From the NCBI RefSeq assembly GCF_965641715.1, contig NZ_OZ282453.1: a stretch of 64,000 bases of DNA, one strand, 5' to 3'. The position numbers are program-made. Position 1 is the stretch's first letter. Each line of letters begins with the position of its first letter. Shown piece after piece: positions 26,801 through 29,800 of this stretch. Source of the DNA: Escherichia coli. Its GTDB lineage: Bacteria; Pseudomonadota; Gammaproteobacteria; Enterobacterales; Enterobacteriaceae.

Positions 26801-29800
26801 AATTGATTGCCGATGGGAACATTCATGTCTATGGCATGATGCGCGGTCGTGCGCTGGCAGGGGCAAGTGGTGACCGGGAAACGCAAATATTTTGTACGAA
26901 CCTGATGGCGGAACTGGTGTCCATCGCAGGTGAATACTGGCTGAGTGATCAGATCCCAGCAGAATTTTATGGCAAAGCGGCGCGACTGCAGTTAGTCGAA
27001 AACGCTTTGACCGTTCAACCGTTAAATTGATCCCTTTTTAACAAGGAATTTCTATGGCACGCATTATTGTTGTTACTTCGGGCAAAGGGGGTGTTGGTAA
27101 GACAACCTCCAGCGCGGCCATCGCCACTGGTTTGGCCCAGAAGGGAAAGAAAACTGTCGTGATAGATTTTGATATCGGCCTGCGTAATCTCGACCTGATT
27201 ATGGGTTGCGAACGCCGGGTCGTTTACGATTTCGTCAACGTCATTCAGGGCGATGCAACGCTAAATCAGGCGTTAATTAAAGATAAGCGTACTGAAAATC
27301 TCTATATTCTGCCGGCATCGCAAACACGCGATAAAGATGCCCTCACCCGTGAAGGGGTCGCTAAAGTTCTTGATGATCTGAAAGCGATGGATTTTGAATT
27401 TATCGTTTGTGACTCCCCGGCAGGGATTGAAACCGGTGCGTTAATGGCACTCTATTTTGCAGACGAAGCCATTATTACCACCAACCCGGAAGTCTCTTCA
27501 GTACGCGACTCTGACCGTATTTTAGGCATTCTGGCGTCAAAATCACGCCGCGCAGAAAATGGCGAAGAGCCTATTAAAGAGCACCTGCTGTTAACGCGCT
27601 ATAACCCAGGCCGCGTAAGCAGAGGTGACATGCTGAGCATGGAAGATGTGCTGGAGATCCTGCGCATCAAACTCGTCGGCGTGATCCCAGAGGATCAATC
27701 AGTATTGCGCGCCTCTAACCAGGGTGAACCGGTCATTCTCGACATTAACGCCGATGCGGGTAAAGCCTACGCAGATACCGTAGAACGTCTGTTGGGAGAA
27801 GAACGTCCTTTCCGCTTCATTGAAGAAGAGAAGAAAGGCTTCCTCAAACGCTTGTTCGGAGGATAAGTTATGGCATTACTCGATTTCTTTCTCTCGCGGA
27901 AGAAAAACACAGCCAACATTGCAAAAGAACGGCTGCAGATTATTGTTGCTGAACGCCGTCGCAGCGATGCAGAACCGCATTATCTGCCGCAGTTGCGTAA
28001 AGATATTCTTGAGGTCATTTGTAAATACGTACAAATTGATCCTGAGATGGTAACCGTACAGCTTGAGCAAAAAGATGGCGATATTTCTATTCTTGAGCTG
28101 AACGTGACCTTACCGGAAGCAGAAGAGCTGAAATAAGCCCGCTGTAAAAGCGCATTTATCTTCAAGGCAGAGTTATCTCTGCCTTGAGTTTTTCATCCCT
28201 CTCATCCACGTTGTAGTAAAGCGACGAGTATTCTTGCTGATACTCCTCATTGCTATTTCCACCTCCCCCTTTACACCTTAAGGCTGTTCCCACGCACAAA
28301 ACAAAATGTTTATGCCTGGTTGAGTAAATAACCTTATTGTTAGCATGGATATACTGGGAGATGATAACCCCGCAATTTCATTATTCATTGTTCTCCCATA
28401 GGATGAGGTTTCCCGCCGTAACTGGCGGGCTTTTTTTGCCCCAGAATTTTCCCTTTTAGCCCCCTGTAAACGAAAACTGCGCCGAAGCGCAGTTTAATCG
28501 TTGATGGTCAGAACGACCAGTTCACGATATATACTGCGGGTATCGACTGATTTCGATTCCATGCCATTGGATAAATGATAGTAGCGTCTAAGTGACCTTA
28601 GCTCGGCTGCAACATCAGCCATCAGGCACCAGACCAGGGGATTTATCCTGAAGAAGAGGCAGCGCAAGAATATTGTGTTCACCGCTCACCAAAGACATCA
28701 TGATGAAATGATGATATTCCGCATAAGAAAGAGGCATTTTTTAAACGCAGTGCGCTGAAGTGTAGTTGGATAAAAAATCACTCTTTTCAGATAATACTGT
28801 CGTACGCTGACTTTTCGACAATGAGGCCGTCGGCAAAATAAAATGACTAATGTAATCGTTGCTGATGAATATCTTCTGCTCACATAAAAATCACACAATA
28901 ATATTGATAAATCAGATTATCTTACCTTTACAACATTGCGTTAACAGTCAATGACACTTCTTGAATAAAAATATTGTCAATCAATGAGTTATTCCTCATT
29001 TAAGATTATTCTCATTCACGTAAAAAACATAATTCCTATCATCACCGTCACGCTCATTTTGAATTATCTGAATAATAGCGAGCGTTCTTTAGTTAAGCAG
29101 ATCTTAATTGAAGACGAAATTATTGTGTGTGCAACTTACTTAATACCGGACATCTAAGTTGAAGAAAAAAATACTTGCCTTCGGGCTTATCTCAGCATTG
29201 TTCTGCTCCACGCCAGCGATGGCGGATATGAACCGCACCACGAAAGGTGCATTGCTAGGCGCAGGCGTTGGGTTACTTACTGGCAATGGTGTTAATGGCG
29301 TACTGAAAGGTGCAGCTGTTGGCGCTGGTGTTGGTGCAGTAACAGAAAAAGGCCGCGACGGTAAAAATGCGCGTAAAGGTGCAAAAGTGGGTGCCGCCGT
29401 TGGTGCTGTCACTGGCGTTCTGACCGGCAATGGCCTCGAAGGGGCGATTAAAGGTGCCGTGATTGGCGGTACGGGTGGTGCAATTCTGGGTAAAATGAAA
29501 TAAGGAATGATGATGAAAAAATTTGCTTTACTGGCGGGTCTGTTTGTTTTCGCACCAATGACCTGGGCGCAGGACTACAATATTAAAAACGGTTTGCCGT
29601 CAGAAACCTATATTACTTGCGCAGAAGCCAACGAAATGGCAAAAACTGACAGCGCACAGGTTGCAGAAATTGTTGCGGTAATGGGTAATGCCAGCGTTGC
29701 CAGCCGTGATTTAAAAATTGAGCAATCTCCGGAACTGAGCGCCAAAGTGGTAGAAAAACTGAATCAGGTTTGCGCTAAAGACCCGCAAATGCTGTTGATC

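What the first reader, a model, noticed from the sequence alone, without database searches (positions are those of the whole stretch)
28200..28700. Convergent intrinsic terminators bracket small-gene or sRNA-like units between minE and ymgG
A plus-strand terminator at 28410-28438 ends a short unit with internal pairing potential (gggaga...tctccc) that could be a small RNA or a 32 codon ORF (MITPQFHYSLFSHRMRFPAVTGGLFLPQNFPF). A minus-strand terminator at about 28471-28492 sits immediately after the 62 codon ORF 28494-28682. K-12 annotates small genes here (ymgI, ymgJ, ycgI), but I could not match them by sequence.
Basis: partly seen in the sequence, partly recalled or inferred. Interest (0 to 1): 0.35.

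Follow-up and report, generated by a model that had tools for sequence, protein, structure and literature searches.

The report
Conserved orphan terminator unit downstream of minE
Between the E. coli cell-division gene minE and a decayed adhesin gene there is an unannotated, strongly conserved stretch of about 77 bases ending in a transcription terminator; it looks like a small regulatory RNA gene but has no expression evidence, and the neighbouring "62-codon gene" is debris of the adhesin pseudogene.

Summary
The window is the E. coli minCDE–ymgIGD region.

**Minus strand.**
- The hairpin at 28474-28495 (cUUCGg loop) is the terminator of the convergent autotransporter gene ycgI. That gene is intact in E. 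albertii and in some E. coli.
- The 62-codon ORF (28494-28682) is neither ymgJ nor a gene. It is a chimera made by a 262-bp deletion inside the ycgI pseudogene.
- True ymgJ is 28698-28883 (-). ymgI is 28984-29157 (+).

**Plus strand.**
- The terminator (28412-28429 plus U7) ends an unannotated block, 28360-28437.
- The block is identical in 77% of E. coli records that carry it. 40 of its bases are 100% identical in E. albertii, while the flanks are about 46% identical.
- It has no Rfam match. It was not found downstream of minE in the other Escherichia clades or other genera sampled.
- Both overlapping ORFs are frameshifted in one sampled lineage and vary in length, so it is non-coding.
- The gggaga/tctccc helix breaks without compensation.

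The best reading is a conditionally expressed, Hfq-type small RNA candidate. Against this, K-12 Term-seq shows no 3' end there in three conditions, no convincing promoter was found, and one strain carries an IS4 inside it. Interest is modest.

The parts
27870..28136 (+). minE CDS (88 aa)
   Evidence: ORF list. Aligns at 99% to annotated K-12 minE.
28161..28193 (+). minE intrinsic terminator (12-bp stem plus T5), the terminator actually used in K-12
   Evidence: Scan. Fold -19.8 kcal/mol, z = -7.3. K-12 Term-seq 3' ends at 1224224/5(-), which map to window 28190/1. A G:C to A:U compensatory change is seen in E. albertii.
28220..28319 (+). C-rich, G-poor tract (rut-like), variable in length and sequence between strains
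   Evidence: GC skew down to -0.66. Lies just upstream of the K-12 Rho-termination peak at 1224064(-), which maps to window 28351. 30 of 131 columns in 28194-28319 are polymorphic, with indels.
28320..28359 (+). Semi-conserved upstream block (TGAGTAAATAACCTTAT ... TATACT). A possible promoter region with a -10-like TATACT at 28350-28355 and no -35.
   Evidence: 29/40 identical to E. albertii. The TATACT varies (TATCCA, TATGCT, CATTCT). The promoter scan does not call it. Inference only.
28360..28437 (+). Conserved non-coding core, a candidate small RNA of about 65-77 nt: a largely unstructured 5' part (28372-28411 is invariant even in E. albertii) plus the terminator
   Evidence: Alignment. 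48/52 versus 97/210 identity, p = 2e-10. Identical in 4113/5316 E. coli records, against 1790/4870 for an equal-length flank. No annotation in any listed record. No Rfam hit.
28412..28437 (+). Intrinsic terminator of the plus-strand unit (CCCGCC-GUAACU-GGCGGG, C, U7)
   Evidence: Conserved in E. albertii, with the last pair lost and the U-run lengthened. No Term-seq 3' end in K-12 at 12239xx.
28474..28495 (-). Terminator hairpin of the convergent autotransporter gene ycgI (AAACUGCGC-UUCG-GCGCAGUUU, tail UCGUUU)
   Evidence: Folds. Conserved in E. albertii shortly downstream of the stop of an intact 910-aa autotransporter ORF.
28508..28580 (-). Remnant of the ycgI autotransporter beta-barrel pseudogene, with the 262-bp deletion junction at the 9-bp repeat CCAGTTCAC (28517-28525)
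   Evidence: BLAST against K-12, K-12 sequence, translations. The same junction occurs in strain CE0032f.
28494..28682 (-).
   Evidence: Compare the E. albertii autotransporter sequence YRLSNGMEAKPGDSRSVYRELGATLSY.
28698..28883 (-). ymgJ (61 aa, GTG start)
   Evidence: Translation matches K-12 YmgJ. Annotated in relatives. Lies in the 5' leader of the intact autotransporter gene in Nord122.
28984..29157 (+). ymgI (57 aa)
   Evidence: One residue different from K-12 YmgI.

Best explanation
The 28140-28700 segment is the boundary between the minCDE operon and a decayed, convergently transcribed autotransporter gene (ycgI, EhaD/YpjA-like).

Shown:
- minE has its own efficient terminator (28161-28193).
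- The minus-strand hairpin (28474-28495) is the autotransporter's terminator.
- The 62-codon ORF is an artefact of a 262-bp deletion between 9-bp repeats inside the ycgI pseudogene.
- The plus-strand terminator (28412-28437) closes a roughly 78-nt block under purifying selection. The block is non-coding, single-copy, unannotated and, in what I sampled, seen only in E. coli and E. albertii.

Inferred: the block is a small RNA gene of the Hfq-dependent, trans-acting type, about 65-77 nt long. It would be transcribed from a weak or activator-dependent promoter around 28320-28360. It would have an unstructured, invariant 5' 'seed' (AAUUUCAUUAUUCAUUGUUCUCCCAUAGGAUGAGG, an anti-Shine-Dalgarno/anti-AUG-like sequence) that pairs with ribosome-binding regions of unidentified mRNAs. 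It would end in a hairpin plus U7 that could bind Hfq. It is silent in standard laboratory conditions. Transcription of the region is also limited by Rho: a C-rich tract at 28220-28319 sits just upstream of the Rho-termination peak that maps to 28351 in K-12.

The gene-map part is near certain. The confidence given is for the sRNA function.
For: Mapping to K-12 genes and the deletion.

Autotransporter intact, with the same terminator, in E. albertii and Nord122.

Terminators.

Conservation of the core: 40/40 and 48/52 identical to E. albertii against 97/210 in the flanks (p = 2e-10); 2/52 against 46/210 polymorphic columns among 7 diverse E. coli (p = 0.001). At population level the core is identical in 77% of matching records, against 37% for an equal-length flank.

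Non-coding: a 1-nt deletion in H105 frameshifts both overlapping ORFs, and their lengths vary (14-47 aa and 15-69 aa). Retapamulin/Ribo-seq tables list no start site there.

Other points: single copy. Not in Rfam. Not annotated in any listed record. The core sequence is not printed in any searchable paper. C-rich tract and published Rho-termination peak with strong BCM-induced downstream signal (18 to 571 reads).
Against: K-12 Term-seq (LB OD 0.4, LB OD 2.0, M63) reports the minE terminator 3' end but nothing at 12239xx, where this unit should end.

The scan calls no sigma-70 promoter. The -10-like TATACT varies between lineages.

The predicted fold is no better than shuffles (z = -0.6). There is no covariation, because the core does not vary.

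One strain (CE0032f) has an IS4 inside the unit. The H105-type lineage carries three changes.

The unit is absent downstream of minE in other Escherichia clades and in about 75 other Enterobacteriaceae species.

No target could be predicted: complementarity within the 64-kb window and to the autotransporter 5' region is at chance level.

No Hfq, RIL-seq or CLASH record was found, but those look-ups were incomplete.
Confidence: 0.42

Rival explanations
1. Fail-safe termination zone only. The plus-strand hairpin is a back-up terminator that works with Rho. It stops minCDE read-through from running antisense into the convergent autotransporter gene, and the block has no trans-acting role.
For: Three termination devices in series downstream of minE: the intrinsic terminator, a C-rich tract with a published Rho-termination peak, and a second intrinsic terminator. 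No separate promoter was found. No stable 3' end appears at the second terminator, which is expected if almost nothing reaches it.
Against: A back-up terminator explains conservation of the 26-nt hairpin and U-run. It does not explain the 40-52 nt upstream of it, which are more conserved than minE's own terminator (22/33 against 48/52 identity to E. albertii).
Confidence: 0.25
2. A relic without current function, for example the 3' end of a lost gene. Its conservation would reflect a low local mutation rate, hitch-hiking or short-tract recombination between E. coli and E. albertii.
For: No expression evidence. IS4 disruption is tolerated in one strain. Decay-like changes in the H105 lineage. 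The whole 28139-28880 segment is missing in the other Escherichia clades sampled.
Against: 40 consecutive identical sites against about 46% identity in the flanks (p = 2e-10) is very unlikely under neutrality. A recombination tract that short, centred exactly on a terminator-ended block, is implausible. The contrast with the flank holds across about 5300 genomes.
Confidence: 0.17
3. A small protein gene: either the plus-strand 32-codon ORF (MITPQFHYSLF...) or the minus-strand 36-codon ORF (MNNEIAG..., with a good SD, GGGAGaacaATG).
For: Both ATGs are conserved in all 8 sequences. The minus-strand ORF has a well-spaced SD. UTI89 carries an annotated hypothetical gene (C1358) between the ycgI homologue and minE.
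Against: A 1-nt deletion in H105 truncates both ORFs (to 14 and 15 aa). Lengths range over 14-47 aa and 15-69 aa. Conservation stops after codons 7-9 of the minus ORF, and the plus ORF runs through the terminator. No initiation peak is listed in the K-12 Ribo-seq tables. RefSeq annotates nothing here.
Confidence: 0.04
4. A cis-antisense pair, like a type I toxin-antitoxin or SymR/symE. The plus RNA would cover the SD and start codon of the minus-strand small ORF and repress it.
For: The geometry fits. The conserved core spans exactly the 5' hairpin, SD, ATG and first codons of the minus ORF.
Against: The minus ORF is not conserved and is not hydrophobic or toxin-like. It is truncated in H105. 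The scan finds no minus-strand promoter. The locus is single-copy, unlike most type I families.
Confidence: 0.04
5. A flagellar-regulon small RNA controlled by FlhDC or sigma-28.
For: A weak in vitro FlhDC gSELEX peak (intensity 14, cutoff 10) is listed between ymgJ and minE. Under U00096.2 numbering it maps to about window 28385. There is a GATGATAA / AATGATAT sigma-28-like -10 with 11-nt spacing to a weak -35 (sequence reading).
Against: In vivo ChIP-seq of FlhD, FlhC and FliA in motile MG1655 lists no site near 1.22 Mb. The motif match is only 9/16. The gSELEX paper's box coordinates are off by about 248 nt, so the mapping is uncertain.
Confidence: 0.04

Closest known systems
Hfq-dependent trans-acting sRNAs of enterobacteria (for example MicA, RybB, OmrA/B, CyaR)
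   Same: About 70-80 nt. Free-standing in an intergenic region. An invariant single-stranded 5' segment. A GC-rich terminator hairpin followed by 7 U, with a short U-run just before the hairpin. More conserved than the flanks.
   Different: No transcript, promoter, Hfq binding or target is known. No Rfam family matches. Found only in E. coli and E. albertii in my sampling. Not detected by K-12 Term-seq in three conditions.
ycgI (b4521) pseudogene / EhaD-YpjA-type autotransporter adhesins
   Same: The beta-barrel C-terminus and terminator are shared with the intact E. albertii and Nord122 genes.
   Different: In this window the remnant is shorter than in K-12: a further 262 bp is deleted between CCAGTTCAC repeats. 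This creates a new chimeric ORF.
ymgJ (b4594) and ymgI (b4593), uncharacterised K-12 small ORFs
   Same: Both are present in the window at 28698-28883 (-) and 28984-29157 (+), with near-identical products.
Tandem intrinsic plus Rho-dependent fail-safe termination at convergent gene pairs
   Same: The minE terminator, a C-rich tract with a published Rho-termination peak, and a second hairpin-U7 lie in series, facing the terminator of the convergent gene.
   Different: The sequence upstream of the second hairpin is conserved far beyond what termination needs.

Membership tests
Intrinsic (Rho-independent) terminator - plus-strand site 28412-28437 | GC-rich hairpin immediately followed by a U-run of at least 5-6 | tested here: met
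   6 G-C pairs, -12.3 kcal/mol, C then U7.
Intrinsic (Rho-independent) terminator - plus-strand site 28412-28437 | RNA 3' end mapped at the U-run in vivo | tested here: not met
   K-12 Term-seq tables (LB OD 0.4, LB OD 2.0, M63) hold no 3' end at 12239xx. They do hold the minE terminator at 1224224/5. Lack of transcription into the site would give the same result.
Intrinsic terminator - minus-strand site 28474-28495 | GC-rich hairpin followed by a U-run, placed just after a stop codon | tested here: met
   9-bp stem with a UUCG loop, -15.3 kcal/mol, z = -5.1. The U-run is interrupted (UUUUCGUUU). It sits shortly downstream of the stop of the intact E. albertii autotransporter ORF. No in vivo 3' end in K-12, where the gene is a pseudogene.
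Hfq-dependent trans-acting sRNA | Discrete small transcript with its own 5' end or a processing site | tested here: inconclusive
   No Term-seq 3' end. The TSS tables I could reach were either not held or held nothing for this position. Only a -10-like TATACT without a -35.
Hfq-dependent trans-acting sRNA | Terminator hairpin plus a U-tail of at least 6 (the Hfq-binding module) and a conserved single-stranded seed | tested here: met
   U7 tail. 28372-28411 is invariant in 7 of 8 aligned sequences and predicted unpaired in the centroid structure.
Hfq-dependent trans-acting sRNA | Hfq binding and base-pairing with target mRNAs | not testable with these tools
   The RIL-seq supplement is not held. 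The CLASH tables have no entry for this locus. No whole genome was available for target prediction; local scans were at chance level.
Any Rfam 15 RNA family | Covariance-model match at or near the gathering score | tested here: not met
   The best hits in 27500-29600 have E of 1.9 or more and bit scores far below gathering. None covers 28360-28437 on the plus strand.
ymgJ (as identity of the 62-codon ORF) | Sequence identity to K-12 YmgJ | tested here: not met
   YmgJ maps to 28698-28883 (-). The 62-aa product shares nothing with it.
ycgI / autotransporter beta-barrel pseudogene (as identity of the 62-codon ORF) | Collinear DNA identity with K-12 ycgI and a protein match to an intact autotransporter C-terminus | tested here: met
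   97-99% DNA identity on both sides of a 262-bp gap. YHLSNGMESKSVDTRSIYREL matches the E. albertii autotransporter.
Small protein gene (either strand, 28278-28459) | Reading frame and length preserved among relatives, with evidence of translation | tested here: not met
   Frameshift in H105 and variable lengths. No start site in the K-12 Ribo-seq tables.
Type I toxin-antitoxin | Conserved small hydrophobic toxin ORF opposite the antisense RNA | tested here: not met
   The minus ORF is not conserved beyond 7-9 codons and is not hydrophobic.
FlhDC / sigma-28 flagellar regulon | In vivo FlhDC or FliA binding at the locus | tested here: not met
   No site near 1.22 Mb in the ChIP-seq tables. Only a weak in vitro gSELEX peak of uncertain position.

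The most novel reading that the evidence does not exclude
E. coli K-12 and most other E. coli, together with E. albertii, carry a still unannotated Hfq-type small RNA gene of about 65-77 nt immediately downstream of minE (K-12 about 1,223,978-1,224,053, minus strand). It would be silent in standard media, kept down by Rho (and possibly H-NS), and would use an invariant anti-RBS-like seed to regulate unknown mRNAs.
Probability: 0.35. Interest if true: 0.45.

Novelty: new member of a known kind. Interest (0 to 1): 0.3.

Why it matters
The K-12 small-RNA catalogue is thought to be nearly complete, so a conserved, free-standing, terminator-ended non-coding block that no annotation or searchable paper mentions is a cheap and testable candidate. 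If it is real, it adds a lineage-restricted regulator next to a cell-division operon and an adhesin island. The rest of the finding tidies the annotation: the 62-codon ORF should not be called a gene, and ymgJ lies in the leader of an autotransporter gene that K-12 has lost.

Tried and rejected
- **Rfam.** A scan at E up to 10 gave only chance-level hits.
- **tRNA/tmRNA.** None found.
- **Repeats or mobile-element ends around the unit.** Nothing meaningful.
- **Phage or plasmid origin.** No phage hit. The plasmid hits are all E. coli, non-mobilizable records up to 4.9 Mb, so probably chromosomal sequence filed as plasmid.
- **Homologues downstream of minE in 80 Enterobacteriaceae species (nhmmer).** Only E. 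coli and E. albertii.
- **Metagenome scan for seed variants that differ from E. coli at the 5' edge.** One contig, itself E. coli-like.
- **gggaga/tctccc helix.** Rejected: broken without compensation.
- **Long-range pairing 28199-28208 with 28401-28408.** It appeared in one fold (z = -2.8). I did not pursue it because the upstream arm lies in a region that does not align with E. albertii.
- **Coding hypotheses on both strands.** Rejected.
- **Local target search.** At chance level; a first, larger scan timed out.
- **Flagellar-regulon lead.** Not supported in vivo.
- **Literature.** No sRNA is reported at minE/ycgI. The RIL-seq and Weaver Ribo-seq supplements are not held. The Cappable-seq and ROSE tables held nothing for these coordinates and may be incomplete.
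- **Deletion uniqueness.** I first thought the 262-bp deletion was unique to this strain. That was wrong: CE0032f has the same junction.
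Full report
**What the window is.** The region is the E. coli minC-minD-minE operon (plus strand; minE 27870-28136), followed by ymgI, ymgG, ymgD and an intact ycgH autotransporter. Aligned to K-12 MG1655 (opposite orientation, NC_000913.3 coordinate = 1252415 - window position), window 27800-28525 matches at 99% and 28517-29300 at 97%. A 262-bp K-12 segment is missing between them. The K-12 sequence shows the missing piece lies inside the ycgI pseudogene, flanked by the 9-bp direct repeat CCAGTTCAC. The window keeps one copy at 28517-28525. The same junction exists in at least one complete genome, CE0032f.

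**Mapping the annotated small genes.**
- ymgI is 28984-29157 (+), one residue different from K-12.
- ymgJ is 28698-28883 (-), with a GTG start.
- The ycgI remnant is about 28508-28580 (-).
It starts in non-genic sequence. It then reads 21 codons (YHLSNGMESKSVDTRSIYREL) of the autotransporter beta-barrel frame, crosses the deletion junction out of frame, and ends VVLTIND*.
- The corresponding gene is an intact 910-aa autotransporter in E. albertii.
- In E. coli Nord122 it is an intact 3411-bp gene annotated YpjA/EhaD-like.
- PGAP annotates this stretch as a partial autotransporter pseudogene in other strains.

**The minus-strand terminator.** The hairpin is 28474-28495 (AAACUGCGC-UUCG-GCGCAGUUU, -15.3 kcal/mol, z = -5.1), with an interrupted U-tract. 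It is conserved in E. albertii, shortly downstream of the stop of the intact autotransporter ORF. It is therefore that gene's terminator, not the end of a small gene. K-12 Term-seq shows no 3' end there, as expected for a pseudogene.

**The plus-strand unit.** minE has its own strong terminator (28161-28193, z = -7.3). Term-seq maps the K-12 3' end to that site. About 220 nt further on lies a second terminator: CCCGCC-GUAACU-GGCGGG, then C and U7 (28412-28437).

An alignment of the window, K-12, five diverse E. coli (down to 88% identity in this region) and E. albertii shows a sharply bounded conserved block at 28360-28437.
- Excluding the hairpin, 48/52 positions are identical between E. coli and E. 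albertii, and 28372-28411 is 40/40. The flanks score 97/210 (Fisher p = 2e-10).
- Among the seven E. coli, 2/52 columns are polymorphic, against 46/210 in the flanks (p = 0.001).
- Across the complete-genome collection the 78-nt core is identical in 4113 of 5316 matching records. An equal-length upstream flank is identical in 1790 of 4870, and is undetectable in about 450 more genomes.
- The block is single-copy. It is unannotated in every record listed and has no Rfam match.
- It has no phage counterpart, and its plasmid hits are E. coli chromosome-like records. No searchable paper prints its sequence.

**Non-coding.**
- A 1-nt deletion in strain H105 truncates them to 14 and 15 aa. H105 was sampled from the 90-95% identity band, which holds about 700 records.
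- Elsewhere their lengths range over 25-47 aa and 36-69 aa, and similarity stops where the conserved block stops.
- Published K-12 initiation-site Ribo-seq tables list nothing here.

**Structure.** The gggaga/tctccc helix exists in this sequence, but it is broken without compensation in E. albertii (3 of 6 pairs), Nord122 and H105. RNAalifold gives a positive covariation term. Single-sequence folds are no better than shuffles. Only the terminator hairpin is consistently predicted. The rest is mostly unpaired, as in many Hfq-type sRNAs, but an invariant sequence cannot be tested for covariation.

**Distribution.** Downstream of minE, the block was found in E. coli and E. albertii only.
- Three other Escherichia lineages (E. 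whittamii, Escherichia sp. E1V33, and a divergent genome labelled E. coli) lack the whole 28139-28880 segment. That segment holds the minE terminator, the unit, the autotransporter and ymgJ. In its place they have about 173 nt.
- About 75 other Enterobacteriaceae species have nothing similar downstream of minE.
- A metagenome scan for seed copies with a non-E. coli 5' edge returned one contig, itself E. coli-like.

**Expression evidence, all from K-12 literature tables.**
- Term-seq in three conditions reports no 3' end at 12239xx.
- The same study lists a Rho-termination region peaking at 1224064 (-), which is window 28351. Without bicyclomycin there are 230 reads upstream and 18 downstream. 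With bicyclomycin there are 293 and 571 (Rho score 24.9).
- A C-rich, G-poor tract (28220-28319, GC skew to -0.66) sits just upstream and looks like a rut site.
- More signal downstream than upstream under BCM is compatible with a Rho-silenced start near the unit. It is equally compatible with derepression of the ymgI region, so I treat it as ambiguous.

**Promoter.** The scan calls none. There is a -10-like TATACT (28350-55) without a -35, and it varies between lineages. Upstream of it is a semi-conserved TGAGTAAATAACCTTAT motif.

A sigma-28-like reading (GATGATAA with 11-nt spacing) and a weak in vitro FlhDC gSELEX peak listed between ymgJ and minE looked suggestive. However, the box coordinates in that paper are shifted by about 248 nt relative to the printed sequences. 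In vivo ChIP-seq for FlhDC and FliA lists no site in this part of the genome.

**Targets.** I could not do a genome-wide prediction. Within the 64-kb window, and against the 5' region of the intact autotransporter gene, complementarity to the seed is at chance level.

**Counter-indications.** One strain has an IS4 inserted in the unit, with a 13-bp target duplication of 28393-28405. The H105-type lineage carries three changes in or next to it.

**Verdict.**
- The minus-strand 'unit' is ordinary pseudogene debris with the old gene's terminator.
- The plus-strand unit is a real, selected, non-coding element that no annotation covers.
- An sRNA gene is the best-supported mechanism (about 0.4). 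A fail-safe terminator zone (about 0.25) and a functionless relic (about 0.17) are the main rivals.
- The finding is of modest interest: a testable new member of a well-known class, not a new kind of system.

Noticed in passing
window 28517-28525; L090 about 4091: A 262-bp deletion inside the ycgI pseudogene between 9-bp direct repeats (CCAGTTCAC). It is shared with bovine strain CE0032f. It is absent from K-12 and from all top-ranked complete genomes.
   Followed up: partly
L090 2547-3972 (equivalent to window about 28405): In strain CE0032f an IS4 element is inserted inside the conserved plus-strand unit, with a 13-bp target duplication (window 28393-28405). The unit is therefore dispensable in at least one strain.
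   Followed up: partly
window 28698-28883 and 28615-28737 (-); L088 1823-2153: ymgJ and a 40-aa ORF (called 'hypothetical protein' or 'ATPase' by PGAP) lie in the same orientation directly upstream of the start codon of the intact autotransporter gene in Nord122. ymgJ is annotated as frameshifted in H105. They may be leader or spurious ORFs rather than genes.
   Followed up: partly
window 28139-28880 versus L004, L006, L008 (4270-4445): Three other Escherichia lineages lack this whole segment, including the minE terminator hairpin. In its place they have about 173 nt of unrelated sequence, with a different hairpin after minE. Homology breaks immediately after the minE stop codon.
   Followed up: partly
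window 29898-32546 (-): ycgH is an intact 882-aa autotransporter ORF here, whereas K-12 annotates ycgH as a pseudogene.
   Followed up: no
window 28161-28188 versus L003 4293-4316: The minE terminator stem shows a compensatory G:C to A:U change between E. coli and E. albertii. This is the only covariation seen in the region.
   Followed up: partly
window 28220-28351: A C-rich, G-poor tract, followed by the position that maps to a published K-12 Rho-termination peak (1224064, minus strand). Downstream signal is strongly induced by bicyclomycin and exceeds the upstream signal.
   Followed up: partly
PMC9962212 Table 1 (entries 45 and 46): The listed 'position of FlhDC box' values are about 248 nt lower than the true U00096.2 positions of the printed box sequences, checked for two entries. 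The mapping of the weak FlhDC gSELEX peak between ymgJ and minE is therefore uncertain (window about 28385 or about 28137).
   Followed up: partly
window 28728-28786: A 16-nt inverted repeat (88% complementary, 27-nt spacer) inside or next to the 3' part of ymgJ and the 40-aa ORF. Meaning unknown.
   Followed up: no
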